Positions 38,495 to 55,978 of a stretch of DNA of 64,000 nucleotides are shown here, in pieces. Numbering within the stretch: the first letter of the stretch is position 1; each line of letters starts with the position of its first letter. Below the pieces are notes generated by a model. It was not told the DNA's origin. It saw only the letters and a list, made by a program, of their open reading frames with translations, and did no database searches. The DNA comes from Halichondria panicea (Eukaryota): contig NC_087384.1 of NCBI RefSeq assembly GCF_963675165.1, forward strand, positions 2,614,315 through 2,678,314, in the 5' to 3' direction. Made by a program: the position numbers and the translations under genes.

Positions 38495-38805
38495 ATGTCA
38501 TCCATAATGCAAGTAGATCTACCAGAGGATACTTTTCGACCTTACATTTCACCCAAACGTCCAGATGACTCCTTCAATATGAAGCCGTTAGAAGCAAGAG
38601 CACTGTTCCGAACGAATGACTACACAGGTTTCACCTCTGGTTTCTGCGATGGATACACTCAGTTCAACATCATTATTATTTCTAGTGAATTTGCTGATGA
38701 TTTTGAGACATTTTGCAGCCAAAACTCAGGTGCATTTCCTGTATTATATCGTAGTAAACCAGGTGAAGTTGGAGCCCCTCCTATTGCTGAGGACTCTAAC
38801 GTCAG
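38495..38805 (+). CDS. D-glutamate cyclase-like exon 1 (ATG 38495)
   Basis: ORF 38495..38818; GTATAT donor. Confidence 0.65.
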
Positions 38806-40450
38806 GTATATCATTTAAAAAATACAACAGTCACACATTGTTCAATATACACATGCTTTTTTGTTTTTTTTCTGCAGGACTGATCTCCCTTGTTATACAA
38901 TCCGGAAGAATGGAATCAGAGTAGCTGAAGCTCCAGATTTGAGCCGATTTACACCAGTTTGGGACTACTTAGTGACTTTCTACATTGGATGCAGCACCAC
39001 ATTTGATTTCGCCTTAATAAAGAATGGTGTTGATGTTCCTAATGTCCTTGACATTCCTGGCTATAAAACTAATGTTTGCTGTTCGTCCGTTGGTCCTTTT
39101 CAAGGAGTAAAAATGACGGTTTCAATGCGTACCATAGCAAAACATCAGCTAGAAAAAGCTTTCATGATATCAAATCAATACCCAGACTACCATGGAGCCC
39201 CTATTCACATAGGTGATCCTACTCGAATTGGAATAAGTGGTGTAACTGTACCTGATGGATATGTAGCTACATTTTGGGCTTGTGGAATGACAGTTGAAGA
39301 TGTAATTTTGATAGCAAGTAAGTCTGTTGTTATGTGCTCTCGTCCTATTACTCAGAGCTTAGTGCTGTCACATGATCTCCAGCTTATAAAAGTAGTCACA
39401 TGTCCATGCTTTAAACTAAAGCTAGAGATCATAATTATGATCATTATATAAATACTTTAAATTAGCCAAAATCACGTCTTTTAATGCTGGTGCATTCGGA
39501 TGGACTCTTGGTTACGTTAACCTCGAGACCAGCCCTAGCACACAGATTGAAACACTTAATCTTGGCTAGGTGTGTTAACTCACATAATGTGTTAATGTGA
39601 CGATCATTTTTCATAATTTACAGAACCAGAGCTTGCATTCTCTCATTATCCTGGTGCGATGTTTATTGGTGACATTAAAAGAGAACCAACCAGTTTAGGT
39701 GATGCTGTGAAGATTATTAAACTCAACAAAGCCGGCTGTGAGTACTTTGCTTCTGTTATAAATCAAAACTCAATAGCTGTATTTGAAGGCATTCAGAGAG
39801 CCTTGGGGATAAAGCCTGTCAATGTACAAGTCAATTCATCCCCTCTTTTGGAAGTAACCCTTAAACTATCTCATGCTAACAAGGTGGTATTAGCATACAT
39901 TCCAAAACATTCTTGTCAACATATTGATGTGCTAGGTATAATGGTCTTTTGTCAGGCTTTGCTCATTCTCAGGAAAGGTGTCACTCTTGTGGTCAAAAAA
40001 GCAGATAAAAACCTTTTTGATATTGCTATTCAACACATGGTTGAGACATTCCATGTTGATACTCCCACCATTGTAACAGTATCCCAGAATGTGACCATAG
40101 AAGATAACATTCCTGTGTTTGATTGCCTACTAATGACATCTCAGAATTGCTATGATGCTGTCAAAGGAATACTTGATATTGCTCAAAAAAACTCTCACAC
40201 CAGTGTCATAACACTCAATAACTATCATTGCAAAGCCACTGAAATTGAGCCAGACATAATTGTGACTGAAAACTTAGTGAACAGTGCGTATGCTCTAGCA
40301 GGAGGATTGTATGTCGCCTCTACCTCTCCTTACCACTGGAGATACAAGAACTATTCCATCAATTCACATCAACAACCTCAATTCAGCGTGGATGATTTCA
40401 TACCTACCAATGATCAGGTTAGTGTTTGTTTTAAATTATGTCATGCATAA
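38495..40450 (+). CDS. Gene span: D-glutamate cyclase-like protein (DUF1445/UPF0317 putative hydro-lyase family) with a C-terminal extra domain; at least 3 exons
   Basis: ATFWACGMTVEDV and HIGDPTRIGI motifs typical of DUF1445; exons 38495-38805, 38878-39317, 39624-40417 (or read-through to the stop at 40450); possible small exon 4 at 40464-40607. Confidence 0.6.
38878..39317 (+). CDS. D-glutamate cyclase-like exon 2 (DUF1445 core)
   Basis: ORF 38861..39451 frame; tctgcAG acceptor, GTAAGT donor. Confidence 0.65.
39624..40417 (+). CDS. D-glutamate cyclase-like exon 3 (second, DUF4392-like domain)
   Basis: ORF 39659..40450 frame; tttacAG acceptor; optional GTTAGT donor at 40418. Confidence 0.6.
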
Positions 40451-41118
40451 TTTTGTCTCACAGTCACAATCACTATGGAAGATGATACTGCCAAAAGGAA
40501 GCTCTGGCTCAGAAGAATTACCTAACTTGTGTCCTGTATCTGAACTCCGTAGTCTATTGAACTGTAGTCTATTGAACTGTAGTCTATCAATGTATGCTGA
40601 TTTGTGATATTTTGGGGGGGGGGTACGTTGGTTGGTTATGCTGGCACAGTTTTTGGTGAGAATTATGGTGGGTATACTCATCAATTGGCATGATAATAAA
40701 ATTATGAGACTAAAAGTTAATTTTAGTGCAGAGTCATTAAGTATAATTATGATCACAAATAAGACTTATAAGGGTATGGAGTGGGTGGTTGTGGGTTTTT
40801 TTATACATTTTCACAAAAAGAGACCCGCTTGTTAGGGGGCCACTAAAAGAGAAATACCGGAAGTGAAATTAAATAATGGGCGTGGCAATAGGAGTGGCGC
40901 AGCGGGGTCTAATTTGCTAGCGGGTTCTGTACCAAATAAATAATGCAGCCATCAACAGCCAGAGCCACAGCACTGCAGTGTGTGTACTTTGTCTATGCAA
41001 GTGAGTGCCAACACTGCTGCTGCTGATATCACACCAAGTGTCTAGATATGGATGACAAAAATATGAGAGTCTTTCAAAGTCTGACCGAGCCTGCATGGTG
41101 CTGTAATCACTGAACTGA

Positions 41119-42470
41119 ATGCTACTCGGATGCACTACCTTATATAGGGACACTACCACCACATTATCTCCGAGCACATCAATGGATGCAACATCACCTA
41201 CCCACCATCTCTCCACAACTCTCAACTCCTCCTCAAACAGCGTCAACTATTCACTCCATTCCACAAAGTCAGGCATATTGTTTAATGCTAGGAGTGTTGC
41301 AAACAAACTACGAGATCTTCACCACGCAAGAGAAAACATTGTATCGCTGTCACAGAAACACACAGATACAAAACTAATGGTCCCCATGGTTTGCCAAACC
41401 AAAGTGAAATCACTCCCGATATCAAACCCTACTGGAAAGCTCGTGGTGACCTTACGATGGTACACTTTTGCTTTACGACCAACGAATGTAGTCCCAAAAG
41501 CACTGCAAAGGCAGACCCTACAAAAGATTCACACGGGACATCAAGGAATTCAACGATGTCGTCTCCGTGCCAAACTCTCTATTTGGTGGCCAGGAATATC
41601 AAAAACCATCAACGACATGGTTAAGCAATGTTCAACATGTTCGAAACACTTTAAACCAAGGATGATACCAACACCACTTCCTGACTACCCGTGGCAAAAA
41701 GTATCATCTGACCTATTTCAACTCGATGGTGCACAATATATTGTAGTTGTCGACTATTACTCGTTAAACTGCCAACAACTACCTCCAGACAAATCATTGA
41801 AGTTCTGAAGAGAATATTTTCTCGTCATGGAATTCCGGAAACCCTAGTGAGCGACAATGGACCTCAGTACTCATCTCGAGAGTTTCAAGATTTCGCAAGT
41901 TCCTACCAATTCTGCCACTTGACAAGCAGTCCTCACTATGCACAGAGCAACGGACATGCAGAGAGAGCAGTGAAGACGGTGAAGAAACTGTTGCGAGAAG
42001 CAGAAGACGGCCTTACTAAGTTATAGGTCAACTCCTTTCCATTGGTGCGGGCTGATGGGGACGAGCTAACATGCCTCTTCAGAAAGACTTGCTTATCCCA
42101 GACTGGAAATACCTGAACCAGTTTCACAAAAGGAGACAAAAGAAAGATTTGATTGCCGCCACAGGACCCAGTCACTCCCAGCACTCCCTGACGAAACAGA
42201 AGTGTGGGTTACTACGGGAAACCAACCGATACCTGGACAAATTGTGACTTCTACAACTACCCCTCGATCTTATGTTGTAAGTACACCCAGTGGAGAAATT
42301 AGGAGAAACAGGAGTCATCTCAACCCAATACCTCACTCCGATAACAGGACCGAAGAACCTGACCCGATTACAACTACCAGGGTGATTCAAACCAGATCCG
42401 GAACTGGGACAGTTATTCACCCACCAGAGAGACATCCCAGAGAAAGGGGGATGTGGAATGTGAACTAATT
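41119..42470 (+). pseudogene. Degenerate LTR-retrotransposon pol fragment (integrase: HHCC zinc finger + rve DDE core), frameshifted with internal stops
   Basis: LQKIHTGHQGIQRCRLRAKLSIWWPGISKTINDMVKQCSTCSK ... ETLVSDNGPQYSSREFQDFASSYQFCHLTSSPHYAQSNGHAERAVKTVKKLL spread over three frames. Confidence 0.8.
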
Positions 42471-43144
42471 GTATCATGTATTTAGTAGAGTATTCTAGAA
42501 TGTTCTGGTAGATTGTTTGTACTATGCTAGTTGTTGTTAGATAGATCTAGAACCTTCTAGGAACTGTTTTGGTGTTTGTATAAATACTCTTGTGTTGTTA
42601 CAATGATGAGTCTTTATGTCTAAAAGTCAAACAACAACAAATCTACACGATACTACAATTACTACACCATTTTCAAATACCACAGACGGTCAGAGACCAA
42701 CAGCATCAATAACAATCTGTACAGATACATTTCTCTTTTAGTGTGAACCTGCAGACCTCACACTAAAAGAGAAATTTACACTTAGGGTGTTTTGCATGTT
42801 CAGGCACTGTGTTACACACATCTACATCATTGTTGCACTGTTTGAAAGTACCACAGAGACCAGCAGCAACAGTAACTCTAAAGAGAAAAACTACAATTCT
42901 TTTTTAGTGTGAGGTCCCCGCGGTTTACACTATAGGTAGCTTTACAGGTTTGTTGCTGTCTCGGTATACTTTCAAACAGTGTAGTGATGTATATAGACCC
43001 ATGCATGTCATATATATTAAGTATATACATGTATATATAAATTATAAGCTCATGGAAAAACCAGTGACACTATGCACTCCCAGTTTTTTTTGCAGCCTGA
43101 GCTACATCTACATCTAGTGATCTAGCTCATGATTGATCCATATA

Positions 43145-43860
43145 GTTTACAGCTGTTTGCATAGACCTTGCAAAATACTAAATCAGCTCACTGCATTACC
43201 ACAAAACCACAAAATCACCATACAATGTTGCTATGCAAACAATATGCAGTCCTGAGCAATGATTGTTTCTAGAACTTGTATAACGGGTACTTTTTGAGTA
43301 GACCCTTGAAAAATACCTGCTGTATAAGGTGGTATAAATTATATCAAGAGTAGATGCTTTATCTACTCTTGGTGGCATGGAAACTCACATAATTATGGTG
43401 AGGCTTGAAGTTTCAGGCTGAAGAGTACGAAGTACCTTAAACACTAACAGATCACAAAATATTGTTTGGTGCTAATCTAGTAGAGAAATATGTTCGGACT
43501 TGATGGTCAAAACCGGTATACCGCAGTGAGCAAGTTAGTAGGCTCTTTAGCGTAAACATTTTTCGTACAGCACAAGTCTCAGCATAAGGCGTTGGTAGAC
43601 CATTCTCTACTATGACTCTCCATGTAGTCTAATTTCTTGAAGTCATGCACCATTGATGAATGTGAATTATATATATAACTGTTAAAACAGGGGTGTATAT
43701 GTACACCCCAAAATGGGTACCACATACGCTTTAAAAACTACCCCCTAGGGTGTAAACTACATGCTCAATATTTACACCTTTAAGGTGTATATATCTCTGT
43801 ATAGGGTGTACTCAATTACACCTCTATAGGGTGTATATAGTATGCATAAAACATGCATTC
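43145..43860. repeat. Left arm of a large internal inverted repeat (unique ~110 bp + ~23-bp GGGTGTAAAC-type tandem array)
   Basis: Reverse complement of 47441-47545 (tacagctgtttgcatagaccttgcaaaatactaaatca...) and of the array at 47191-47400. Confidence 0.65.
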
Positions 43861-45668
43861 ACCATTCAAATTGATCACAGCTGTATCAAGTTAAAACACA
43901 TCCACAAAAGTATAGCAGCAAAGAAACAAAACATCATAGCAGCACTAAAATGAGATTATAATTATACATGTGCCAAAGGGTTCAATTTTGTTCGTTGAGT
44001 CCAAAGAATACACTTAGCTCGCACGTTGGCTCTTGTTCAACATCACATAGAAAATACAGTCTGTACTGGTCTGGCACAAAGATCGTCTGAATTCTGCACA
44101 GAAAACAAAACACCAAGTCACAAGCATACAGTACATGGAGAATGTTAATTTTTACCGAACAAACGTTTGACGCATTCACATAATTATTATAAGAGCAACA
44201 CACAACCTTAAGGATCTACCTTATATGCATTCGTACATGTACAAAATAGATAAGTCTTCAAAAACTCTTTAATTATTTGGATTGACGGAACACCTACATG
44301 CGCATACATAGAAAAGTACAGTCAGCTATTTTGTAAAAGCCAAATCGAAGCTAACCTTGATATCATCTGAAGAACCCTCGCTATCAATTTTTTACCTTGT
44401 CGCCATCTCCAACTTAGAATATGCAATAATCCATGAGTCCCAGTTCTCCATTAATGATCGATTGGACACTCACATCTTTTTCAATACTGACGATTCTCTT
44501 GAACTCGATTCATGAATAGGCCTGCATAGAGGAATTAGATGTGTACAGATCAGATAAACTTGCTAACGACAGGTAAGAATAGTCGAAGTCATAGAAGTTT
44601 AGAACCTACCACTTCGTGAAGTTTCAAAGAAGGAAAATTTATTCATAAGATCTGAGACCGAGGGCTGTGCTGTCTTTCTTCTTTCAAAATATGTCAGTTC
44701 TGTAATGATATGATATAGATTTAAACAATTGTAGCAACATAAATCTATTAACATACTTTGTCTGATGATGTCCCATTCTCTAGGAAGTTGGTTAGCAACT
44801 TGTTCACTAAAGCTGTTGTCCATAAAAGGATGTTACTGGATACTTGAGAACCCAGGGATGAATAGCTAGCTACCAGTCAGAGGACTGGTTAGTATTAATA
44901 CACGTGCTCAGAGGTGTGAATCACACCTTATGTGTCTCCTAAAAAACGCACACCTCAATTAATAATTATGGGCGGGGGGGGGGGGGGCTGTAAATTCTAT
45001 GTGACTGAAGTTGATGAAGCCCTAGCTAGCTAGCTCTAGTCTTGGACATGCATGAGAGCTCTTTATGTTTGGAAAGCTGATGGACATTACTATATTTGTC
45101 CTCAACTCAAATCACTTGACACAGTAGAGTACGAGTAGACTACAACCATCACAGTAGTTTCCACTGTTTATACATTGTAGGAACTCAGCACTCACTCTTT
45201 TCTTTTGTACCTAACCATAATTATGTTAGAATTACCAGAAAGTATTAGTACGCTATGTATCGTTCCAAAACATATACTTTTTAGCTCAATATGATGTGTT
45301 TTATACTTGATTTATTATTTTTCTCTGTATCAAATGAATTTCTTCCTTGAACTTTAATTAGACTGTACTGCAATCAATAAAGTACAGTGTAGTAAAGGCA
45401 AACTGGTACTGGAGTTTGCAGAATCTTTGCAACACATGAATAAAAGTGTTGAGCACTGTGGTTCCTTATGTGGGAAATGCTCATACATTTAAGTAGTAAA
45501 ACAGACCACAGTGTGTACACAAAATCCATATAAGGAACGGGTAACGCTCTACGCTTTTACTGGTGTGTTGCAAAGACTCTGCAAACTCCAGTAGTATATA
45601 ATGATGCACTCTTTATATGCTACACCCCATGCTATTGTGTAGTTTACACCCTTATGCTATTAGTGTAG

Positions 45669-45787
45669 TTAACCCGAGGCGCGTGGGCGGCCACGGGTTA
45701 TAGTAGTCGTTTGGTTTGTTTGTTTGTTTGTTTGTTTGTTAACCCGAGGCGCGTGGGCGGCCACGGGTTATAGTAGTCGTTTGGTTT
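45669..45787. repeat. 2 x 59-bp tandem unit AACCCGAGGCGCGTGGGCGGCCACGGGTTATAGTAGTCGTTTGGTTTG(TTTG)n; a related copy lies at 20823-20893
   Basis: Direct comparison of the three copies. Confidence 0.7.
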
Positions 45788-45805
45788 GTTTGTTTGTTTG
45801 TTTGT

Positions 45806-47200
45806 GACAGGTGAATCTACTCACCTGGATGCCACAGCACTGCGTTTACAGCATGGATAGCCTTTATACAACAAGTTATTAGTTTTAATAGTGGCAGAAT
45901 TTCATGTTAAACCTTTGTTGTCAAATAAAAACGAGCAAAAGCTAAGAAGCTTGTGACTGGGTCTGCTTACCTGGATGCTCTAGCACTGTGTTTACAGCAT
46001 GGGTAGCCTCCACACAACAAGTCAGTACTTCTAATAGTGGCAGCTTTCGGTGTTAAAGCTTCGTTGTCTAATAAAAGCGAGCAAAATGTAGCTTGAACAG
46101 AACTTGCACATGCGTTACTTATAACTGAAGTGATCCTGTACCAGGTCCAGAAACAATGGAACAGGGTCACTAAAGTAGAAAGCTTGCTTTAGCTGACTGG
46201 GATCCAGCAGGACCTGGAGCCATACTTCTCTGAGACTCCAGGCTTCTCTTTGCTGTGATCCTAATCCACAGTGCATATATCTATAGTACTACTACCTGTT
46301 CTCAAATGTTTCAGCATGCCTCCAGTCTGGTTTAGTTTTATTGCTCCTGAGTTGCTGTGCAAGTCATGCATGCATGATGATGATAACAACATCACTATAA
46401 TTATGGCAATGCACTGCATTATATGGTTTCTTTATAATCATGTCACCAGCCGAGGGTTTGCACTTTAGTGCTCTAGTTTGTTTGTGACAGATGAATCTAC
46501 TCAACTGGATGCCACAACACTGCGTTTACAGCATGGATAGCCTTCATACAACAAGTTATTAATTTTAATAGTGGCAGAATTTCATGTTAAACCTTCGTTG
46601 TCAAATAAAAACGAGCAAAAGCTAAGAAGCTTGTGACTGGGTCTGCTTACCTGGATGCTCTAGCACTGCGTTTACAGCATGGGTAGCCTCCACACAACAA
46701 GCCAGTACTTCTAATAGTGGCAGCTTTCGGTGTTAAAGCTTTGTTGTCTAATAAAAGCGAGCAAAATGTAGCTTGAACAGAACTTGCACATGCGTTACTT
46801 ATAACTGAAGTGATCCTGTACCAGGTCCAGAAACAATGGAACAGGGTCACTAAAGTAGAAAGCTGTATATACCAGGAACAATGGGACAGGGTCACTAAAG
46901 TAGAAAGCTTGCTTTAGCTGACAGGGATCCATGCAGGACCTGGAGCCGTACTTCTCTGAGACTCCAGGCTTCTTTGCTGTGATCCTAATCCAATTTATCT
47001 ATAGTACTACTACCTGTTCTCAAATGTTTCAGCATGCCTCCAGTCTGGTTTAGTTTTATTGCTCCTGAGTTGCTGTGCAAGTCATGCATGATGATGATAG
47101 CAACATCACTATATGCACTGCATTATATCAGTCTTCTGGTTTCTTTATAATCATGTCACCAGCCGAGGGTTTGCACTTTAGTGCTCGTTTACATTGCTAT
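45806..47200. repeat. Tandem duplication (2 x ~680 bp) with an internal ~130-bp sub-repeat
   Basis: 45806-46484 and 46485-47200 are near-identical apart from small indels. Confidence 0.8.
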
Positions 47201-47545
47201 TGTAGTTTACACCCTTACCTATTAGTGTAGGCTATTGTAGTTTACACCCTTATGTTACTATTGTAGTTTACACCCTTAAGCTATTAGTGTAGTTTACACC
47301 CCATGCTATTGTAGTTTACACCCTATATGCTATGATATTTACACTCCCTTTTGTTTACTCCCCAAACCAGGTCTTATTTAAACCCTAGTACATGGTGTAT
47401 ACACCCCTGTTTTAACACAGCATGAATGTACCCAATGCTATTTGTTTGCATAGCAACATTGTATGGTGGTTTTGTGGTAATGCAGTGAATGATTTAGTAT
47501 TTTGCAAGGTCTATGCAAACAGCTGTACTGACAAATGCCAGAGAA
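47191..47545. repeat. Right arm of the internal inverted repeat (tandem ~23-bp CTATTGTAGTTTACACCCTTA units, then the unique segment)
   Basis: See the left arm at 43145-43860. Confidence 0.65.
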
Positions 47546-47992
47546 AACTTTGGGCACTGGAAGTAAACAAAGGATTAGCTACAATCTAACCGGCAGGACA
47601 GAGTAGCATCTGATTGTCTAAAGGATCTTCTTGAGACTGCATGGCGTGCATGCATGCATATGTATGTAAGCTAGCCTGCCATGCAGGTACCGTAGTGACA
47701 CTAGAAGTGAAAGAAACTCCTTGAACAGAAGTCTAACCAGAATAAAACCAGTCACTGGCAGCATAGATAGAGTAGCTCTATCTATGCTGGCAGAAAGCTG
47801 TAATTAGTGTTAATGTGGTACCCGCCAGCAAATTGGACCCCGCTAGGCCACGCCCATTATTTGATTTCACTTCCGGTATTTCTCTTTTTTTAGTGTTGCG
47901 AGAAGTCTCAGATTGCACACGTGATCTAAAAGTTGCATTTTTGTGGTTAAAATTAATTATGTCAATTTGTTACTATGTGCGGGCACCCTTAA

Positions 47993-48263
47993 GGCCACTC
48001 CAAGTGACACTCTGGTTTCTGGTCCTGAAGTTTTTCTAATTGCATGCGGGCGGGCGGCTTTTCTCATTATGTCATTATCAATTTCACCTAATGAACTCAT
48101 TATTTGCAAATGAATATCATTATCACACTATTTTGTACCACGTGGACCATTATGCGCATGCGTAGTAGAAATAATGGGATAGAAATCCAATAATGAGATA
48201 GAAATCCAAGAATAAAATCTGATGCGGGCGGTGGACCAGAAACAGAGTATCACTTGGAGTGGC
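47993..48263. mobile_element. MITE-like element with 32-bp TIRs (GGCCACTCCAAGTGACACTCTGGTTTCTGGTCC)
   Basis: Left TIR 47993-48025, right TIR 48232-48263 (reverse complement with 2 mismatches); ~205-bp AT-rich internal region. Confidence 0.6.
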
Positions 48264-48396
48264 CTAACTTGAAGGAAGAAATACAAATAGAGAAAGAAAG
48301 AAGGACCTCTCGAAAAACTAGTAGGCCACTCAAAAAGACACCTTCTTTTTTCTTTGTCTCTTCTTCCTAATTATAGTGTCAAAGGAAAAAAGATAA

Positions 48397-49320
48397 ATGG
48401 CTCTAGTCATCAGAAATGCAAAATTTGAAGATTTGCAGTTTCCCATTCGATTTGTTGTAGAAAATAAATGGAGGCCATTTGGTCCAGGAGATTACTCATG
48501 TGCTTACAGCTACGATCCAAAAGGCTTCTTTGTTGGTGAGCTTGATGGAGAAGTAATCAGTCATATCATGGTTATCTCCTATCCCTCGCATTCTACTCAC
48601 TGTGGGTCACTGATAATACGAAAAGAGTATAGACACAAAGGCTACGCGGCACTGATGCTGAAACATCTTTCAAAGACTATAGATCAAACATTTACAATTG
48701 GACTTGACTCACTACCGTACATGATTCCGTTCTTCGAATCTTTTGGTTTTTGTACTGTTTGGGAAAATTCTATCGCCATGTTAAGCTTTGAGAAGATCAT
48801 TTCAAAACTAGACCATCTGGAATTCAAATCAGAAGATTTATTACTAAAACCTATACGAACAGTGGACATCAAAATGCTAGTACAGTACGACGCATCTGTT
48901 TTTGGCTGCAAGAGACACACCCTAGTGGAAAATTGGGTGAATATTCCAGGTAGTATGGGCTGGGTGGCTTTTGATTGTGACAGAGGAATTGTTGGGTACA
49001 CTCTTGTCAGGCCCATTATTATGAATGGGGGGAGTGAAATTGGAATGAACATGGCCCCTCTCTATGCTGAAAACAATCAAGCAGCTGGTGTATTGATGAA
49101 AATAGCAGCAGAGACCTGTCTTGTTAATGAAGCGGTCGCAGCAAAAAAATTTCTACTTATTTATGCCAGAGGTGCGGATCACAGCAAGAATGCATCAGCG
49201 ATATTTGACCAAGTGGAAGCCGAATACCTACCTTTCGCGACCCGAATGTACTCAAAAGGAGCCCCAATAAATGGCTCTTTGAACAAGATCTACGGGATCA
49301 TGCACCCTACATTCGATTAA
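48397..49320 (+). CDS. GNAT-family N-acetyltransferase (N-terminal GNAT fold + C-terminal YitH-like domain), intronless, 307 aa
   Basis: ORF 48397..49320; acetyl-CoA binding motif IRKEYRHKGYAALMLKHL. Confidence 0.6.
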   Translation: MALVIRNAKFEDLQFPIRFVVENKWRPFGPGDYSCAYSYDPKGFFVGELDGEVISHIMVISYPSHSTHCGSLIIRKEYRHKGYAALMLKHLSKTIDQTFTIGLDSLPYMIPFFESFGFCTVWENSIAMLSFEKIISKLDHLEFKSEDLLLKPIRTVDIKMLVQYDASVFGCKRHTLVENWVNIPGSMGWVAFDCDRGIVGYTLVRPIIMNGGSEIGMNMAPLYAENNQAAGVLMKIAAETCLVNEAVAAKKFLLIYARGADHSKNASAIFDQVEAEYLPFATRMYSKGAPINGSLNKIYGIMHPTFD

Positions 49321-49440
49321 CTATATAATTATACGTTAGTACGTAGGTCTGGCTAGCAACCTCAAAACATTAGATCATTGTTTGTGTACAATACATGTAG
49401 TTGTAATTATAATCCTATACAATAATTATTATGAATCCAA

Positions 49441-50223
49441 TTAGTTCTGAATCAGTTTACGAACAACAAACACAAAAGCTGTTGCATAATCTCGGTACGG
49501 CATTTTAGTGTTCTCTAACAGTTCACAATTGCATATTGATATCTGCTTTTTCCATTCTTCAGCTGTCAGGTCGAACAATTCTTTGTTGACTGTTGCAATG
49601 AAGAAACAGCCCGGCTTGAGAACATGGAGGATGTTTGGCAAACATTCCGGGCCACACTGTCCAATCCCAAACACACCAGCACAGATAACACTGTCAAAAC
49701 TATTGGCTTCGTATGGCAGTTCCTCTTTCAGGTTGATGACTTGCAGCTCGGTGTAAATTCCTTTTGATTTTGCTACCTTCAACATCTCATTGCTAATGTC
49801 ACCACCATAAAGCTGAATTGCTTGTGGAGTTGATACAGAATTTAAAAGCAATTCACCAGCTAGGCCAGTTCCGCATCCTGTATCAAGAAGTTTGTGCTTC
49901 TTTCCAACATCATTTAAATGAAAGCTCTGCCATTTTTGAACAACACTCGTGTATCCAGAGTAGTTCATAGAATTTACATCAACTTCATAGCTGCTTGCCC
50001 ACTGGTCGTAGGCAATTGATCCACCACCTTCTGCAATGAGTGCAACAAAACCTTTTGCTCTCTCAGAGAAAGGTAACTCGGCCATAGCCCGATAAATTAG
50101 TCCTATCAAGAGCCTTGGAATTTTGATTGCAGCGGTTAACGTGTGAAGATTAAAGGTGTCTAAGTGCCTCGAAAAATGCCGTAAGATGCGGTAATCTATA
50201 GCTGTGAAACCGCACAGCTGCAC
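49441..50223 (-). CDS. Class I SAM-dependent methyltransferase, METTL27/WBSCR27-like, intronless; the true start is probably the internal Met (complement of ~50083-50085, MAELPFSERAKG)
   Basis: ORF 49441..50223; motif I LLDTGCGTGLAGELL, YDQWASSYEVDV, FDSVICAGVFGIGQCGPECLPNILHVLKPGCFFIATV, parallel to human METTL27. The first 46 codons of the ORF are encoded by a hairpin arm and are probably not translated. Confidence 0.6.
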   Translation of the reverse strand: MQLCGFTAIDYRILRHFSRHLDTFNLHTLTAAIKIPRLLIGLIYRAMAELPFSERAKGFVALIAEGGGSIAYDQWASSYEVDVNSMNYSGYTSVVQKWQSFHLNDVGKKHKLLDTGCGTGLAGELLLNSVSTPQAIQLYGGDISNEMLKVAKSKGIYTELQVINLKEELPYEANSFDSVICAGVFGIGQCGPECLPNILHVLKPGCFFIATVNKELFDLTAEEWKKQISICNCELLENTKMPYRDYATAFVFVVRKLIQN

Positions 50224-50313
50224 CTGCTGTGCTGCACCTGTGCATGCGGTTTAGTGCCTAGTTAATTAGTCACTAGCCTAAGGAGCACAGCAGGTGCAGC
50301 TGTGCGGTTTCAC
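50204..50313. promoter_or_regulatory. Perfect 30-bp inverted repeat (GTGAAACCGCACAGCTGCACCTGCTGTGCT ... AGCACAGCAGGTGCAGCTGTGCGGTTTCAC) with a 50-nt loop, just 5' of the methyltransferase gene
   Basis: Exact reverse-complement arms at 50204-50233 and 50284-50313. Confidence 0.5.
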
Positions 50314-51727
50314 GTGCTAAAGAATACGTACCGTGTAGGCATAAATTAATTAATTAGGCAAGTCCTGACTAGTACAGAGATAGTAGTGTCTTGAGCTAGA
50401 TAATTATCGGCTATGGTAGCATCAATGAGCAACAGTGAACTATGGCGACTAGGAATCAACAGTACTCTGACACAGCTTTTGGCCGCAATGCTTTATTCTA
50501 TTAGTGTCATTAGCTATCTGCCCTCCATTCACAGATTTGTCACTAATCCCACTGAAGAGAACCTCAATGGAACAAGTCACTTTAAGGTTTATTATGAAGG
50601 TTTTATGGTGGCCGGCCTGCCACAAAATTAATGTAGTCTAGTGCTGGGTATAGGTACGATACAAAGGGGGAGACATCTAATTTCTGACCCCCCTGTCTTG
50701 CAGATCTTGAGAGCTATTTTATTTACCTATTCACTAACTACTATACTATGGTCAATAGGTTGCATGTAGGCAAAAAATTCTGGTAAATGAGACAGGGGGG
50801 GTATTACGAGATACCATTACATTTATCGCTAATTGGCTGCTCTATAGCATATCTTATATTGAAATACAGTTATTCTGTCTATAAAAACAGTTACTCCTTT
50901 TTTAACAGATACCTAGACGTAAGTGAATTTTACATGAGAAGAGAACTACCAATACCTCTACACAAAAACTGTGCACAAAGTAACGTGACCTCCTGTCAAT
51001 TGCACGTGAGCAACTCGCAATTGATGAAATTTGCGCAAGCTTGTGCATATACATTATACGCAACGCACAGAATTCGTTAACAGTGAGTAAAGAATGCAAG
51101 TGAAGAGGAGCAACTCAAAATTGTCTCTACTTAGATTTTGTGAAGAAATCATTGTCTATCAGTGTGCGGTGAGTAGCTCTGAACGTTGAACGCGAACGTG
51201 CAGATCGATGTCATTGTTCAATTAATTACCACACCCCTAAAACGTCATGCTTAACATTTACTAGGAGATTACTACAATTATACCCTATCATGTGCAAGTC
51301 ATGTTACTTTGTGCACAGTTTTTGTGTAGAGGTATCGGTATAGATAGACACTCTTCTCTTCTTATAATAGTCTTGATTTACTACTGGCACCCACTTAAAT
51401 TTGGTCATTAAAATGTTTCTCCAGTATACTTACACAAACTATGGTGGTATCTCTGTCAACACATGCACAACTTTAAATTTCTTTGGAAAAAATACTATAG
51501 AGAGAGGTACATGCAGTAATGCAGTAGCGGATAATTTTCGGGGGGATAAAATATTCGTGGTTCAGCAATATTAAGACATTTCGTGGGTAATATTTTCATG
51601 GTTGCTTAGCTTTACGGTATTAGAATAGCTGAAGTTTTAAACAGTGCTCTCATAATTGGTTCTGTCTCACAATTAATAATTATACCCTCTTCTATCCAAC
51701 TGGCTTAGTGAAATTATATAACTGCAG

Positions 51728-52142
51728 GTTGAACCAGAAGCTGGACTAGGAGAGTCAGAATTCTTCTATTCCTTAGCTATTGCTTGTATGTATATCGGAT
51801 CAGTCACAGGAGGATTTTTATCTGCTTTTCTTGTTAAGTTTGTCCCATATTGGTATCTGTTCATCCTTTTTCTTTCTGCTCATGTACTTGGCTTTGTGCT
51901 GTATGGCACGGCAAGTCATGGGTGGGCACTGCTACCAGCAATGTTTTTTGTTGGGCTATTTGCAGGTGCTGAAGTTACATTGGTTTTTAACTATGCCACT
52001 GATATTAGTGTTAAGTATGTGGATCTGTTGAAAGAAAGAGGAAAAACGTTCAACTGTGACAAAACCAAAGTTGTCAAGATCCGAAACTATCTCTATGCAA
52101 GTCATTCCTTTGGGTATAGCATTGGGTTTATTGTTGCCACAG
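51728..52142 (+). CDS. MFS transporter exon (VEPEAGLGESEFFYSLAIACMYIGSVTGGFLSAFLVKFVPYWYLFILFLSAHVLGFVLYG...)
   Basis: ORF 51788..52273 frame; aactgcAG acceptor, GTGAGC donor. Confidence 0.55.
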
Positions 52143-54896
52143 GTGAGCATCGTTCATCGTATAGCGTGAAATGTTCGCTGATTTCGTTGGTTTGCTATCC
52201 TACACGAAAATTAAGTCCACGAAAATTGTGCAACAAAATCCTTTTAGAGGCCATTCCACGAAATATAGTCTAAGTGCCTTGAAAATTTCACACTATGCAG
52301 TAATTTATATTGAGCAAAGTAGATACACATACACTTTTGGATGTACGTTTTGAAGCAATACATGTATATTTTTTTAATCGTAGGAGTAGCAGTTCTGCTG
52401 TCTCACTTACCTATTGAACAGTATCGATCAATTGCTTGGTTCAACATGGCTTGTGGTGTAACTGTACTACTATTGTTTATGTTTTTCTTTCGCGGTGAAT
52501 CAAGTTGGGAAAATGTCAGCAACATCACTAAAATGTGCCGGTGCAGTTGCCAGTGTAAAACTGAAAAAGATATCAAGTTTGGATCACTTCAAATATTCAT
52601 ATCCTCAAAATCCATACCAATCATGCGAGTGTTTTATGCACATTAATTTATGCACATTAATTTTATATACCCTATTACTAATCATAATTGGTAGCATAAT
52701 TAATGAGAATTGTGCTGGCATACTGGGCACCTTTAAATAATCAGCTTTCAAATTATGTCTACCTACCGTATAGCGTGTAATTTCGTAGGGCAAATATTCC
52801 TGGTTTTCGTGGTTGGAGGTCTGACCACGAATATGTTACCCACGAATAAAGCGACCTTGCCTACCTTTACCTGCAGTGCAAGCAGCAACCATGAAAATAC
52901 TACCCACGAAATGTCTCAATATTGTTGAACCACGAATATTTTGTCCCCCGAAAATTACCCACTATACGGTATTACTATACTGTTTTGCAGAATGCATGCT
53001 AAAGCCATAATTGACCACATAGCTTCTGAGGTTGAACTCAACGCAAATAGACTTTAGTACGTACGTACTTGTATGACAACATGATCCTTGCAAGATTGTG
53101 ATCCAAAATTGTCAATATTTATGCTGATTTTGCTCGTTTATTGCTTGCAAAACAATGTAATAAATATACGATAGTTCTTTATAAACATTTACTGCATGCA
53201 TTGTATTGTGTTCATGAATGTTTCCTGAACATTGCTAATTACATTATTGTTAGTCTACATCTTCTCTCATTTGTTGAGATGATGAAGTGGGCCTATCTTG
53301 ACGTTCTGCTGAATCCAGTTCTCAGTGACTCATTTGGCCTCTCTTTGGGAATGTCTTCCTACTTCTACTTGGCATTGGCAGTTCCTCGAATCTTAGGAAC
53401 GGTGTTGTTGTAAGTGAACTATTTTTGACAATGTGATATTATCATTTACCCTCTCTCGGCCCTCCTCTATATAAGTAAAATGTAATGAAATACGAGCAAA
53501 ATCTAGCATTGGTTCAGAGGCTTCATTCTAAATGTACAGTGTCAGGACTGTACTCTCAACCTCCTCACCCCAAATGTTACAATAATGCTAAGATGGCCAT
53601 GAAATAATACCTTAGTATGAATTCTGATGTGGTGGCAAATACCACTCCTCTCCTAATATCTATCCTAATTATGTACAGGGTTATCCTACAGAGGATCAAG
53701 TTCACTACCCAAACAGTTGCGTTCATTGGTATTCTATTGTCACTGATTGGCTACTTACTAATATCAGACTGGCAAACCATTCCGTACGACCCCTGCACCA
53801 AATACAGTCCATTTCATCATCCAGAACTGTCACAGAATGATAGCTCACACCACACCCACAATGAAACAGAAATAAAATGGATGTTTGATACACGACCTGT
53901 GAATCGTGTTCCATTTACTACTGATTTATCGTTCACAGTGCATTCTGGTATTAATGGTAGTCACGATAAGCTTCCTACGAAAACCTCTAGTCGCTTACAT
54001 TTAACTTGTCAAGTGAATGCAGATTGTTCCCTTGTTTGCGAAACACAACGAACCGATCAACTATGTTTAACGCTCATCTACCCAAACAGTGACAATCCAT
54101 TACTTCTTAAACCCACAGCCTACTCTTGCTCTATACAACACAACACATTATGTATCAACATTTATCATCAATCTAAAAGGAACTTACTTCTACAATCGAA
54201 CGCAAATGTTCAACGTCTGATGGTGCTACCAGCTGCTGTTTATGACAAGGCAAGTAACTCGTGTATGAATTCTATTGATGGACAATGTCACTGGATACCA
54301 TTCTCAACATTAACACACAAGAAGTGTATTGACTGTCCCCCTATTTGTAGAGGAAAGCAACAAACGCTTCTTTTTCCACTCTTTATACTTGGAATGGCTC
54401 TCCAGGTGATGTCAAATCCATTAATATGGGTTCCCACAATCGCCCTTGCTACCAATCAGACCCCTAAGAGTATGCAGGTAAATATGCACTTATTATTAAT
54501 AATTATGCCAAAAATTGTTTTGAGGTGCTTATTCTACACAGGCAATCATTATTGGTAGTATTAACGCCATCAATGCTGTTGGACAGAGCATTGGACCAAT
54601 ATTAGGTGAGTCCATGCACGTGTGCCCACATCGAACACAAGTCATATTATAATTATTTCACTGATGAAGTGTGTCAATCGTAAACCCTATAGAGTAAACC
54701 ACCGATTATCGAACACATGCTATTTTTGAATGCTTATTCTCGAGGACAGCGGCTCAGAGTAGCACTGAAGTATAGACTACTGTAGTCTTTCTAATTATAG
54801 AACCACCCTAATACATGCACCAACCAGATAACCCTGCGTGTGTAGCAGGGGTAGAGTGATTGGTGTGTGTGTGTGCGTGTGTCAGTTTGTGTGGGT

Positions 54897-54938
<42 letters not shown>

Positions 54939-55473
54939 ACACAAACATGAGTTGTTTGAGCAAACTAGACACTGATAAATGAGAAATTAGTTGAAAAATA
55001 GGCTAATCCGCTATGGTTACAGTTGAAACTATATGTATGCGATCTTCGAAGGCGACAAAAACACTGTTTTCTAATCGAGGAAGCTGGCCGTGAGTTTGGA
55101 TGCGATCTTCGAAGGCGACAAAAACACTGTTTTCTAATCGATCTAATCGAGGAAGCTGGCCGTGAGTTTGGACATGAATAGAGCCTTACCTATACCTATA
55201 CTAGGTACTATTACTAAACTTAGTGGTCTGAGCCGCTGTCCTTGAGAACAAGCGTTCCAAAATAGCATGTGTTCGATAGTTGGTGTTTACTCTACTCTAC
55301 TCATGATCAGTGTGCACATTTGATAACGTTGTGTCATATCCTATGCAGTGGATGCACTATATGAAGGAGCACAGAAGAGAACATTTATTCCATCTACTCT
55401 ACTGGCCGTTTTACACATTCCTTTCTTAATTGGAATTATAATTTTGTATCAAAAGTTAGGACCTAAAAAATAG
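51728..55473 (+). CDS. Gene span (partial model): MFS-superfamily transporter with a large Cys-rich extracellular loop (SLCO/OATP-like)
   Basis: Hydrophobic TM-like exons; one 266-codon exon encodes a Cys-rich loop (CQVNADCSLVCETQRTDQLC ... GQCHWIPFS ... KKCIDCPPICRG) between TM segments; exons 51728-52142, 52384-52494, 53679-54477, 54542-54605, 55349-55473; further exons (about 53200-53411; 5' exon possibly 50413-50621) are unresolved. Confidence 0.5.
52384..52494 (+). CDS. MFS transporter exon (GVAVLLSHLPIEQYRSIAWFNMACGVTVLLLFMFFFR)
   Basis: ORF 52341..52646 frame; atcgtAG acceptor; the GTGAAT donor is uncertain. Confidence 0.4.
52795..52985 (+). repeat. CACGAA-rich dispersed repeat (MITE/SINE-like), direct copy; the inverted copy is at 51530-51635 and another copy sits at the window start (1-100)
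   Basis: Shared ...caaccatgaaaatactacccacgaaatgtctcaatattgttgaaccacgaatattttgtcccccgaaaattacccactatacggta... Confidence 0.65.
53679..54477 (+). CDS. MFS transporter exon with the Cys-rich extracellular loop (266 codons)
   Basis: ORF 53617..54558 frame; tgtacAG acceptor, GTAAAT donor after ...KSMQ. Confidence 0.55.
54542..54605 (+). CDS. MFS transporter exon (AIIIGSINAINAVGQSIGPIL)
   Basis: ctacacAG acceptor, GTGAGT donor. Confidence 0.5.
54668..55310. repeat. Foldback element in an MFS-transporter intron (~80-bp inverted arms flanking (GT)n and a 2 x 62-bp tandem)
   Basis: 54690-54760 is the reverse complement of 55228-55300; (GT)n at 54871-54938. Confidence 0.6.
55349..55473 (+). CDS. MFS transporter terminal exon (VDALYEGAQKRTFIPSTLLAVLHIPFLIGIIILYQKLGPKK, TAG stop)
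   Basis: ctatgcAG acceptor; stop 55471-55473. Confidence 0.5.
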
Positions 55474-55978
55474 CGTAGACTCTAAGATGAAACAAAGTAT
55501 ACAAGTATCGAATGATACCAGTCAGTTTAATTTGTGCATTTCAGTGTTCACTGATTTTGTTTAGCAGTTTCATGGTCAATTGTGAATGGAAGCCTTTACG
55601 GAAAATAATTAAGGTTACTACAGTAGACTCTCGAGTACGCGGTCACCTCGATAATTACAACTGGCCATTCATTTTGGTTTGGCACGGATTGCTAGAGCTC
55701 GATGTTTACTGCACAAAACTCACCCTGAAATGCGGCCACTCGCTATTCTGTATACTGGCCAGTACTGATTGCCCCAAAACAATGTAATTTTGTGCGGCCG
55801 GATATGACTTTTGGGTGTGGTTTGGCAGATAAAATTGGATTACACAGACAGAACAAAATATTACTAATTTCTTTCGAGGTAAGGTCTTTTTAGCTGCGGC
55901 TATTTTCTAAAGTGCAGCCGGTACCTCGCTATTCCGGCCAAGCTGCCTCCCACTATGGTGACCAGATTAACGAGAGTC

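What the first reader, a model, noticed from the sequence alone, without database searches (positions are those of the whole stretch)
48397..50313. Convergent pair of intronless genes (GNAT acetyltransferase and METTL27-like methyltransferase) 120 bp apart, with a perfect 30-bp hairpin at the methyltransferase 5' end
Both ORFs are single-exon and compact and lie tail-to-tail (stops at 49320 and 49441). This is unlike the intron-rich neighbours. The GNAT protein has a bacterial-style two-domain architecture (GNAT + YitH-like C-terminal domain). The methyltransferase matches the metazoan METTL27/WBSCR27 family, which argues against simple contamination. Just upstream of the likely methyltransferase start is an exact 30/30 inverted repeat (50204-50233 and 50284-50313). 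Its arm even encodes the first residues of the ORF-track product (MQLCGFT), so that N-terminal extension is probably spurious and the hairpin is 5' UTR or promoter. The hairpin could be a MITE footprint or a regulatory structure.
Basis: partly seen in the sequence, partly recalled or inferred. Interest (0 to 1): 0.55.

Follow-up and report, generated by a model that had tools for sequence, protein, structure and literature searches.

The report
Conserved sponge enzyme-gene trio, palindromic promoter
Two intron-free enzyme genes (an acetyltransferase and a METTL27-like methyltransferase) are ordinary, long-resident sponge genes, but several divergent sponge-like assemblies keep them tail-to-tail next to a D-glutamate-cyclase-like gene, while the 30-bp hairpin is a species-specific palindrome between two promoters and is not coding.

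Summary
There is a 307-aa tandem-GNAT ORF at 48397-49320 (+), a METTL27-like methyltransferase ORF on the minus strand, 120 bp between their stop codons, and an exact 30/30 inverted repeat at 50204-50233 / 50284-50313.

The methyltransferase starts at the ATG at 50085 and is 214 aa. The 46-aa GTG-started extension that begins in the hairpin arm is an ORF-finder artefact.

Both genes look like host genes. Their GC, GC3 and CpG depletion match the neighbours. dN/dS against an orthologue is about 0.1 with synonymous sites saturated. The closest bacterial GNAT relatives are only 23-28% identical.

The GNAT-><-methyltransferase pair recurs as uninterrupted ORFs in at least five other sponge-type assemblies. 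In four of them a three-exon D-glutamate-cyclase-like gene lies just upstream, while the outer flanks differ. The same gene is in the window at 38495-40450. So the pair belongs to a conserved three-enzyme block. A shared small-molecule pathway is my inference, not something shown.

The hairpin lies in the 327-bp head-to-head spacer between the methyltransferase and the next gene. It varies in a conspecific contig and is absent from other species. No other copy was found. It is one of 13 long inverted repeats in the window, so it is probably a TE-like or local palindrome.

Interest is moderate.

The parts
48397..49320 (+). Intronless tandem-GNAT acyl-CoA N-acyltransferase gene of 307 aa. The N-terminal GNAT domain carries the acetyl-CoA motif R79-H-K-G82-Y-A84. 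The C-terminal domain is YitH-like (Acetyltransf_18).
   Evidence: ORF. Pfam PF00583 scores 38.1 bits and PF18014 41.1 bits, both above their cut-offs. AlphaFold2 gives pLDDT 91 and a tandem-GNAT fold whose best PDB match is 3ddd. Full-length uninterrupted orthologues at 53-99% identity. dN/dS 0.09-0.13.
49441..50085 (-). Intronless METTL27-like class I SAM-dependent methyltransferase gene of 214 aa. The ATG is at 50085 and the stop at 49441-49443. SAM motif I is LLDTGCGTG.
   Evidence: P0021 is a 214-aa gene call, 100% identical, from another assembly, and homologues are 213-234 aa. The profile hits mouse METTL27 (7qcb) at E=2e-20 against 1e-9 for the next family. The top structural hit is also 7qcb. 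dN/dS 0.13-0.21.
50086..50223 (-). Spurious 46-codon, GTG-started extension of the methyltransferase ORF. It is non-coding and is either 5'UTR or promoter.
   Evidence: It starts at a GTG inside the hairpin arm. The homologue alignment starts at MAELPF.
49321..49440 (.). The 120-bp spacer between the two convergent stop codons. No canonical AATAAA signal on either strand by eye.
   Evidence: The equivalent spacers in orthologous loci are 138, 196, about 270, 532 and 1495 bp.
50204..50313 (.). Palindromic element with 30-nt perfect arms (50204-50233 and 50284-50313) and a 50-nt loop. Imperfect pairing continues about 10 nt outward on each side.
   Evidence: In the conspecific contig L005 the arms are 36 nt with one mismatch and the loop is 33 nt. 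It is absent from the orthologous promoters of other species. There is no other copy in the window, in the eukaryotic loci or in JGI metagenomes.
50086..50412 (.). The 327-bp head-to-head intergenic spacer between the methyltransferase ATG and the ATG of the next + strand gene. It is probably a bidirectional promoter, and the palindrome lies near its middle.
   Evidence: Exon 1 of the neighbour (ORF starting at 50413) is conserved head-to-head with the methyltransferase in L001/L002 and L005. That it acts as a promoter is inferred.
38495..40450 (+). D-glutamate-cyclase-like gene of 525 aa in three exons (38495-38805, 38878-39317, 39624-40450). It is the conserved third member of the block.
   Evidence: GT/AG splice sites and the reading frame were checked. 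Pfam PF07286 scores 127.6 bits. PDB UPF0317 proteins 2pif and 3db9 hit at E=1e-42. Orthologues lie directly upstream of the GNAT in L001-L004, L010 and L014.
40451..48396 (.). An 8-kb spacer between the cyclase-like gene and the GNAT that is specific to this species. It contains a retroelement integrase fragment at 41119-41808.
   Evidence: Integrase_H2C2 hit. The same spacer is only about 0.7-2 kb in the other species. L005 stops being colinear with the window to the left of 48121.
47992..48265 (.). A second long inverted repeat (26-nt arms, 92% complementary, 222 nt apart) about 130 bp upstream of the GNAT ATG. It resembles a MITE.
   Evidence: It is single-copy in the window.

Best explanation
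The window is nuclear DNA of a demosponge-like animal. The closest sequences come from sponge holobiont assemblies, including a Halichondria panicea sponge metagenome.

Positions 48397-49320 encode an intronless tandem-GNAT N-acyltransferase. Positions 50085-49441 on the minus strand encode an intronless 214-aa METTL27-like SAM methyltransferase. Both are old, vertically inherited host genes under purifying selection, not recent bacterial imports.

The tail-to-tail pair is one unit of a conserved three-enzyme block. The order is a D-glutamate-cyclase-like hydro-lyase (38495-40450, with introns), then the GNAT, then the methyltransferase pointing back towards the GNAT. The block has stayed together across lineages whose synonymous sites are saturated and whose outer neighbours have changed.

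The most likely reason, which is inferred and which I put at roughly 40%, is that the three enzymes act on one small molecule. A plausible candidate is a (D-)glutamate/5-oxoproline-type or other amino-acid-derived metabolite that is cyclised, N-acylated and methylated.

The 30-bp hairpin is not part of any protein. It is a species-specific, polymorphic palindrome, either a TE-like insertion or a local inverted duplication. It lies in the middle of the 327-bp divergent promoter region between the methyltransferase and the head-to-head neighbour gene. It most likely sits between the two transcription start sites and has no conserved function.
For: Shown.
- Domains and folds of the three proteins.
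- The 214-aa methyltransferase start.
- Host-like composition: GC 0.41, GC3 0.39 and CpG o/e 0.44-0.59, against a window CpG o/e of 0.52 (flat GC profile).
- Purifying selection: dN/dS 0.09-0.21 with dS above 1.2.
- The convergent pair is present in L001-3, L004, L010/L011, L014 and L095. It is also implied by shared contig lengths for P0013/P0024 and P0014/P0034.
- The cyclase-like gene lies directly upstream in L001-3, L004, L010 and L014.
- The downstream flanks differ: a multi-exon gene in the window and L001, a RING gene in L004, Ig genes in L010, and an extra GNAT plus p450 exons in L014.
- Paired GNATs form one subclade. Paired methyltransferases share one clade with four solo copies nested in it. 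The identities of the three genes fall in the same order across loci.
- Eighty bacterial two-domain GNAT loci are only 23-28% identical, and none has a methyltransferase or cyclase homologue within 6 kb.
- For the hairpin: geometry, polymorphism in L005, absence from other species, and a background rich in inverted repeats and MITEs, including a polymorphic 317-bp MITE 22 bp away in L005.

From the literature.
- The METTL27 substrate is unknown and may be a small molecule (PMC9240639).
- Mammalian DGLUCY converts D-glutamate to 5-oxo-D-proline (PMC5339696, listed).
Against: - No expression, transcription-start or poly(A) data are available, so independent transcription and the promoter role are inferred.
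- A shared pathway is inferred from linkage alone. Only about four independent lineages were examined, and the upstream flanks could not be compared because the contigs or loci end there.
- Some methyltransferase copies (L096, L097, and Halichondria RefSeq METTL27 in L012/L013) and several GNAT paralogues (L006-L009) lie alone, so the linkage is not obligatory.
- In the window species the cyclase-like gene has been pushed 8 kb away by insertions, and a conspecific contig is not even colinear there.
- The C-terminal domain of the window's cyclase-like protein does not reach Pfam PF14336.
- For the hairpin, no target-site duplication and no second copy were found, so a TE origin is not demonstrated. 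A perfect 30-bp stem that persists in two haplotypes could reflect function.
Confidence: 0.65

Rival explanations
1. The linkage has no biochemical meaning. The trio stays together through slow rearrangement or cis-regulatory and 3'-end constraints, for example overlapping convergent transcripts or enhancers embedded in neighbouring genes. On this view the enzymes do not share a pathway.
For: Conserved metazoan microsynteny is often explained by regulatory constraint (PMC3514665, listed). Only about four lineages were sampled. Solo methyltransferase and GNAT copies exist. The cyclase-GNAT distance is unconstrained in the window species, at 8 kb and polymorphic.
Against: The adjacent non-enzyme neighbours were not retained in L004, L010 or L014, whereas both enzyme adjacencies were. 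All three genes are small-molecule-type enzymes from different superfamilies. The convergent spacer ranges from 120 to 1495 bp, so a strict 3'-overlap constraint is unlikely.
Confidence: 0.4
2. The GNAT, and perhaps the UPF0317 part of the cyclase-like gene, entered an early sponge or animal ancestor by ancient horizontal transfer from bacteria. That would explain the lack of introns and the YitH-like architecture. Afterwards the gene was inherited vertically and expanded.
For: The two-domain architecture is widespread in bacteria over its full length. The sponge clade is isolated, with every relative outside it at 30% identity or less. The genes are intronless and form tandem arrays. The cyclase N-terminal region hits bacterial UPF0317 structures at E=1e-42.
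Against: No bacterial sequence is closer than 28% identity. Related intronless copies occur on another eukaryotic contig, and a chytrid fungus carries a homologue. The NJ tree is star-like and does not nest sponges inside any bacterial group. Composition is fully host-like. This rival is compatible with the main explanation.
Confidence: 0.3
3. The pair results from recent horizontal transfer from a symbiont, or from bacterial contamination of the assembly.
For: Both genes are compact and intronless, and the sequences come from sponge holobiont samples.
Against: GC, GC3 and CpG depletion equal those of the flanking intron-containing genes. The pair is embedded between eukaryotic genes (bZIP, Zwilch, retroelements) on one contig, and this is reproduced in an independent assembly. 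The best bacterial identity is 23-28%. Orthologues occur in several sponge assemblies.
Confidence: 0.02
4. The hairpin is functional. It could be a transcribed hairpin RNA (a precursor of siRNA or miRNA), a translation-blocking structure in the 5'UTR, or a cruciform or transcription-factor palindrome that controls the bidirectional promoter.
For: The stem is very stable (-86 kcal/mol, z=-11). It is retained, with one mismatch, in a second haplotype. It is centrally placed between two divergent genes. Rfam gives sub-threshold matches to miRNA precursors.
Against: The Rfam scores (37 and 33.7 bits) fall well below the gathering score of 66.7 and appear on both strands, as any palindrome would. 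Neither the sequence nor a comparable structure is present in the orthologous promoters of other species. The loop differs by indels between haplotypes. The genome is full of similar inverted repeats. A -86 kcal/mol stem in a 5'UTR would probably abolish translation.
Confidence: 0.12

Closest known systems
YitH-type / tandem-GNAT acetyltransferases (Pfam PF00583 + PF18014). Structural neighbours are PDB 3ddd (Pyrococcus horikoshii putative acetyltransferase), the tandem GNAT of the clavulanic-acid pathway (2wpx), Eis, VipF and histidine acetyltransferase (9en3).
   Same: The two-domain GNAT architecture is the same over the whole length. The acetyl-CoA motif R-x-x-G-x-A is present in the N-terminal domain. 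The AlphaFold2 model is confident and superposes on tandem GNATs with TM 0.6-0.77.
   Different: Sequence identity to every solved or named protein is very low (10-16% in the structural alignments). The profile reaches only single-domain GNATs in the PDB by sequence. The substrate is unknown. The sponge clade is an isolated family of intronless genes, expanded in eukaryotes.
METTL27 / WBSCR27 (mouse structure 7qcb), an orphan class I SAM methyltransferase
   Same: It is the best hit by both sequence (E=2e-20, 11 orders of magnitude ahead of the next family) and structure. The match includes the N-terminal YDxWAxxYexDV helix and SAM motif I. A 53%-identical sponge protein is named METTL27 by RefSeq.
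   Different: Identity to the mouse protein is only about 24%. The sponge genes are intronless, multi-copy and sometimes tandem. Orthology with vertebrate METTL27, as opposed to paralogy, was not tested with a metazoan-wide tree. Sponge copies are linked to a GNAT and a cyclase-like gene. From memory and not tested here, the human genes lie on different chromosomes.
D-glutamate cyclase (mammalian DGLUCY) / bacterial UPF0317 (DUF1445) hydro-lyases
   Same: Pfam PF07286 scores 127.6 bits. PDB UPF0317 proteins 2pif and 3db9 hit at E=1e-42. Orthologues carry the GLUCM-like_C domain (PF14336), as DGLUCY-type proteins do.
   Different: The C-terminal half of the window protein itself does not reach PF14336. 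No activity was tested. Linkage to a GNAT and a methyltransferase was not found in the papers I searched.
Animal metabolic gene clusters (for example the sponge terpenoid clusters in PMC13483135) and conserved metazoan microsyntenic blocks (PMC3514665)
   Same: Three non-homologous enzyme genes are kept adjacent and in fixed relative orientation across divergent lineages, while the flanks change.
   Different: No product, no co-expression and no pathway logic has been demonstrated. The block is small, and in the window species TE insertions have loosened it.
MITEs / foldback elements
   Same: It is short (110 bp), non-coding and AT-rich in the centre. It has long terminal inverted repeats and lies in a genome with many MITE-like inverted repeats, including a polymorphic 317-bp MITE 22 bp away in a conspecific contig.
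   Different: No target-site duplication is recognisable and no second copy was found. Identity is highest in the middle of the arms and decays outward, which is the opposite of typical MITE termini.

Membership tests
GNAT superfamily, YitH-like two-domain subfamily | N-terminal GNAT domain above the Pfam gathering score | tested here: met
   PF00583 scores 38.1 bits against a cut-off of 20.7, covering residues 32-118.
GNAT superfamily, YitH-like two-domain subfamily | C-terminal Acetyltransf_18 (YitH C-terminal) domain | tested here: met
   PF18014 scores 41.1 bits against a cut-off of 22.7, covering residues 162-300 and profile positions 2-124 of 124. The AlphaFold2 model has a tandem GNAT fold.
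GNAT superfamily, YitH-like two-domain subfamily | Acetyl-CoA pyrophosphate-binding motif Q/R-x-x-G-x-G/A | tested here: met
   R79-H-K-G82-Y-A84 in the window protein. The consensus across 16 homologues is EHRGKGYG.
GNAT superfamily, YitH-like two-domain subfamily | Acyl-transfer activity and identity of the acceptor substrate | not testable with these tools
   Requires enzyme assays.
METTL27 / WBSCR27 | Closest characterised relative is METTL27, clearly ahead of other methyltransferase families | tested here: met
   The profile hits 7qcb at E=2.1e-20 against 1e-9 for the next family. The top Foldseek hit is 7qcb. A single-sequence search gives E=4e-15.
METTL27 / WBSCR27 | Class I SAM-binding motifs (motif I D/E-x-G-x-G-x-G and the acidic post-I residue) | tested here: met
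   LLDTGCGTG and GGD are present. D68, G70, C71, G72, T73, G74 and D96 are invariant in 22 homologues.
METTL27 / WBSCR27 | Orthology to vertebrate METTL27 in a metazoan-wide phylogeny | not tested
   No taxon-labelled metazoan protein set was available. Only RefSeq's naming of Halichondria XP_064388699.1 supports it.
D-glutamate cyclase (DGLUCY / UPF0317) | D-Glu_cyclase (PF07286) domain | tested here: met
   127.6 bits against a cut-off of 25. PDB 2pif and 3db9 hit at E=1e-42.
D-glutamate cyclase (DGLUCY / UPF0317) | GLUCM-like C-terminal domain (PF14336) | tested here: inconclusive
   Not detected in the window protein at E<=0.1. It is recorded for the orthologous products in L001, L004, L010 and L014, to which exon 3 aligns at 32-47% identity.
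MITE / foldback transposon (hairpin) | Terminal inverted repeats | tested here: met
   30/30 arms.
MITE / foldback transposon (hairpin) | Target-site duplication flanking the element | tested here: not met
   The flanks are ...TATAGCT and GTGCTAAAG..., which share no direct repeat. No empty site was available for comparison.
MITE / foldback transposon (hairpin) | Multiple dispersed copies in the genome | tested here: inconclusive
   No other copy in the 64-kb window, in the 14 eukaryotic loci held at that point, or in JGI metagenomes. The whole genome of the species could not be searched.
Known RNA families (miRNA precursors and others) | Rfam covariance-model score at or above the gathering threshold | tested here: not met
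   The best match is mir-214 at 37 bits against a threshold of 66.7, and it appears on both strands.
Recent horizontal gene transfer | Atypical composition and a close prokaryotic donor homologue | tested here: not met
   GC, GC3, CpG o/e and codon usage match the neighbours. The best bacterial identity is 23-28%.
Metabolic gene cluster | At least three non-homologous enzyme genes adjacent, conserved across lineages while the flanks change | tested here: met
   The trio is present in the window, L001-3, L004, L010 and L014 with different downstream flanks.
Metabolic gene cluster | Co-regulation and consecutive steps of one pathway | not testable with these tools
   No expression or biochemical data.

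The most novel reading that the evidence does not exclude
The D-glutamate-cyclase-like gene, the tandem GNAT and the METTL27-like methyltransferase form a true animal metabolic gene cluster. It would make or detoxify a modified amino-acid derivative, for example by cyclising, N-acylating and methylating D-glutamate or another D-amino acid that sponges take up from the bacteria they filter and host. If so, this would be the first genomic-context clue to the substrate class of the orphan enzyme METTL27/WBSCR27, pointing to a small molecule rather than RNA or protein.
Probability: 0.25. Interest if true: 0.65.

Novelty: new member of a known kind. Interest (0 to 1): 0.4.

Why it matters
On their own, the two genes and the hairpin are ordinary. 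They are host genes of known superfamilies plus one of many inverted repeats in a MITE-rich genome.

The value lies in the context. METTL27/WBSCR27 is a Williams-Beuren-region methyltransferase whose substrate has resisted direct searches (PMC9240639). Conserved clusters of non-homologous enzyme genes are also rare in animals. A METTL27-like gene that stays next to a tandem GNAT and a D-glutamate-cyclase-like gene across deeply diverged sponges gives a concrete hypothesis that can be tested cheaply: three recombinant enzymes, candidate amino-acid substrates, and LC-MS.

The case also warns against reading intronless, 'bacterial-looking' genes in holobiont assemblies as horizontal transfer.

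Tried and rejected
- **Recent HGT or contamination.** Rejected on composition, eukaryotic flanks and the 23-28% identity to bacteria.
- **Imported bacterial operon.** None of the 80 bacterial GNAT loci has a methyltransferase or cyclase homologue within 6 kb.
- **Hairpin as a repeated element.** There are no further copies in the window at up to 3 mismatches, by blastn-short against the window and the 14 eukaryotic loci held at that point, or as an exact 21-mer in JGI metagenomes.
- **Hairpin as a known RNA.** Only sub-threshold miRNA-like Rfam hits, on both strands.
- **Hairpin conserved in orthologous promoters.** No comparable inverted repeat in L001, L004 or L010. The promoter cannot be aligned with L001, as expected with dS above 1.2.
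- **Naming distant GNAT relatives.** Most are unnamed metagenome proteins. Only a Kiritimatiellia MAG and a chytrid were labelled.
- **afdb50 fold search for taxon-labelled homologues.** The library was unavailable.
- **Histidine acetyltransferase / NAT16-type relationship for the GNAT.** Seen only at fold level, not by sequence profile.
- **Bacterial promoter/terminator scan.** Uninformative for a eukaryote.
- **Literature searches for a known link between cyclase, GNAT and methyltransferase.** Nothing relevant.
- **JGI metagenome search for more loci.** One short contig, which again carries the convergent pair.
Full report
**Observation.** A 307-aa ORF runs 48397-49320 on the + strand. A minus-strand ORF runs 49441-50223. 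The stop codons are 120 bp apart. The inverted repeat 50204-50233 / 50284-50313 is 30/30 complementary with a 50-nt spacer. No comparable match occurs in 100 shuffles. The structure folds at -86.1 kcal/mol as RNA (z = -11.0) and at z = -10.2 as DNA. The GTG that opens the 260-aa ORF lies inside the left arm, so MQLCGFT is read from the hairpin.

**What the two genes are.** The + strand protein matches Acetyltransf_1 (residues 32-118) and the YitH-type Acetyltransf_18 domain (162-300), both above Pfam cut-offs. It carries the acetyl-CoA motif RHKGYA. With a 16-sequence alignment, AlphaFold2 gives a confident tandem-GNAT model with pLDDT 91. Its best PDB neighbours are tandem GNATs: 3ddd, the clavulanate-pathway tandem GNAT, Eis, VipF and histidine acetyltransferase. 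By sequence, the profile reaches only single-domain GNATs.

The minus-strand protein is a class I SAM methyltransferase. A profile of 22 homologues hits mouse METTL27/WBSCR27 (7qcb) at E = 2e-20, against 1e-9 for the next family. The AlphaFold2 model (pLDDT 89.6) also has 7qcb as its top structural match. A 53%-identical Halichondria panicea protein is named METTL27 by RefSeq.

The true start is the ATG at 50085. A 100%-identical 214-aa gene call exists in another assembly, homologues are 213-234 aa, and the alignment begins at MAELPF. The 46-codon extension is therefore an artefact of using bacterial start codons.

**Host genes, not imports.** GC (0.41), GC3 (0.39), CpG depletion (o/e 0.44-0.59) and codon usage of both genes match the flanking intron-containing genes and the window as a whole. 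The GC profile is flat. The genes lie between a bZIP gene, a Zwilch gene and retroelement remnants.

An independent contig, L005, reproduces window 48121-58930 at 98-99% identity. Against the orthologues in L001, dN/dS is 0.086 for the GNAT and 0.135 for the methyltransferase, with dS above 1.2.

A profile search of 1.84 billion representative proteins finds 3,589 relatives of the GNAT. Everything outside the sponge clade is at most about 30% identical. The best 80 bacterial loci are 23-28% identical over the full two-domain length. None of them has a methyltransferase or cyclase homologue within 6 kb.

The same architecture occurs as intronless genes on plainly eukaryotic contigs. One such locus is a five-copy array in L009. 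Another is two copies in L098, next to THAP, Harbinger and LTR elements and a Dis3 gene. A chytrid homologue also exists. A rough NJ tree is star-like and does not nest the sponge clade within any bacterial group. Ancient transfer cannot be excluded. Recent transfer and contamination can.

**The conserved block.** The GNAT-><-methyltransferase arrangement recurs in several loci.
- L001-L003: GNAT 76% and methyltransferase 71% identical. The contig belongs to WGS project JAHZIO, which its paper describes as a Halichondria panicea sponge metagenome.
- L004: 62% and 60%.
- L010/L011: 61% and 62%.
- L014: 51-54% and 57%.
- L095: 73% and 71%.
- Two further short contigs, judged from shared contig lengths.

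All are single uninterrupted ORFs. The spacers between stop codons are 120-1495 bp.

In L001-3, L004, L010 and L014 a gene with D-Glu_cyclase (PF07286) and GLUCM-like_C (PF14336) domains lies immediately upstream of the GNAT on the same strand. The window has it too. I reconstructed a three-exon, 525-aa gene (38495-38805, 38878-39317, 39624-40450) with GT/AG borders and a continuous reading frame. It scores 127.6 bits on PF07286 and hits bacterial UPF0317 structures at E = 1e-42.

In the window species about 8 kb separates this gene from the GNAT. The spacer contains a retroelement integrase fragment. L005 is not even colinear to the left of 48121.

The downstream neighbours differ between lineages:
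- a multi-exon gene head-to-head with the methyltransferase in the window and L001;
- a RING-finger gene in L004;
- Ig-domain genes in L010;
- a second GNAT copy and p450 exons in L014.

Paired GNATs form one subclade. Paired methyltransferases fall in one clade that also contains four unpaired copies. Two of those were checked (L096, L097) and lie alone in one assembly. The Halichondria RefSeq METTL27, also unpaired, falls outside the clade. More distant GNAT paralogues are unpaired.

So the block is ancestral to a sponge subgroup and has outlasted its flanks, but it is not obligatory.

**How it probably works.** What is shown is three intact enzyme genes under purifying selection in conserved order and orientation.

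What is inferred is that they act on a common small molecule. Mammalian DGLUCY cyclises D-glutamate to 5-oxo-D-proline (PMC5339696). GNATs N-acylate amines. The METTL27 substrate is unknown, and the structural study did not exclude a small molecule (PMC9240639). A (D-)amino-acid modification or detoxification route would suit filter feeders that consume and host bacteria. I put this at about 25-40%.

The main rival is linkage without a shared pathway, through regulatory or neutral microsynteny (about 40%; PMC3514665).

**The hairpin.** It lies 118 nt from the methyltransferase ATG and 99 nt from the ATG of the head-to-head neighbour, that is, in the middle of a 327-bp divergent spacer.

In L005 the arms are 36 nt with one mismatch and the loop is 33 nt instead of 50. 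A 317-bp MITE with 67-nt terminal repeats is inserted 22 bp away there, and a 71%-identical copy of that MITE sits at window 21448-21713.

The orthologous promoters of three other species have no such repeat and cannot be aligned. No other copy was found in the window, in the eukaryotic loci or in JGI metagenomes. No target-site duplication is visible. Rfam gives only sub-threshold miRNA-like scores on both strands.

The window has 13 long inverted repeats, about one per 5 kb. One of them, at 47992-48265, lies about 130 bp upstream of the GNAT start.

The best reading is a young, lineage-specific palindrome, either a TE-like insertion or a local inverted duplication, sitting between two transcription start sites. 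A regulatory or hairpin-RNA role remains possible (about 12%).

**Comparison with known families and verdict.** The proteins are new members of known families: tandem-GNAT/YitH-like, METTL27-like, and DGLUCY/UPF0317-like. Orthology to vertebrate METTL27 and all enzymatic activities are untested. The hairpin fails or leaves open two of three MITE criteria, and it fails Rfam membership.

The finding as written is largely ordinary. The conserved three-enzyme block is the part worth following up, because it offers a testable lead on an orphan human methyltransferase family. Overall interest is 0.4.

Noticed in passing
L005:11938-12256 (insertion point corresponds to window ~50335); related copy at window 21448-21713: A 317-bp MITE with 67-nt terminal inverted repeats and a CAGTGTAGG target-site duplication is present in the conspecific contig L005, 22 bp from the hairpin. 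It is absent from the window. A 71%-identical copy lies elsewhere in the window.
   Followed up: partly
window 48121 (breakpoint) and L005:1-9724: L005 matches the window at 98-99% from 48121 to 58930, but its 9.7 kb upstream of that point matches nothing in the window. The break falls inside the inverted repeat 47992-48265. This suggests a large structural polymorphism or TE insertion between the cyclase-like gene and the GNAT.
   Followed up: partly
window 47992-48265: A second MITE-like inverted repeat (26-nt arms, 92% complementary, 222 nt apart, with an internal 19-nt tandem duplication) lies about 130 bp upstream of the GNAT start. Both intronless genes therefore have a long inverted repeat in their upstream region.
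   Followed up: partly
window, whole (e.g. 54697-55288, 45407-45593, 50947-51340): The window holds 13 inverted-repeat pairs of at least 22 nt within 600 nt of each other, about one per 5 kb. Arms reach 62 nt, which indicates a MITE-rich genome.
   Followed up: no
window 41119-41808: An ORF with a retroelement Integrase_H2C2 zinc-binding domain lies inside the 8-kb spacer between the cyclase-like gene and the GNAT.
   Followed up: no
L009:216-15809; L098:4970-8915; L096:4595-10666: Paralogues of both families occur as tandem arrays of intronless genes in other eukaryotic contigs: five GNATs in L009, two GNATs in L098 and two methyltransferases in L096. These are lineage-specific expansions.
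   Followed up: partly
L014:4369-9179: In this lineage the block carries an extra GNAT copy beyond the methyltransferase, with cytochrome P450 exons next to it. These could be additional cluster members or coincidence.
   Followed up: no
window 50190-50325: The palindrome gives sub-threshold Rfam mir-214 matches on both strands (37 and 33.7 bits against a gathering score of 66.7). By eye, its arm contains ACAGCAGG, which I recall as the start of mature miR-214 (from memory, not checked). I judged this a chance match.
   Followed up: yes
window ~48143-48156; 50240-50250; L005 MITE interior: An NRF1-like palindrome, TGCGCATGCG, lies upstream of the GNAT. A GCATGCGG(T) motif recurs in the hairpin loop and inside the L005 MITE.
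   Followed up: no
window 37219-37575 (-), 56805-58358 (+): The flanking genes include a bZIP transcription-factor exon and a large Zwilch (RZZ complex) exon. The order bZIP, then cyclase, GNAT, methyltransferase and the head-to-head neighbour is fully syntenic with L001/L002.
   Followed up: partly
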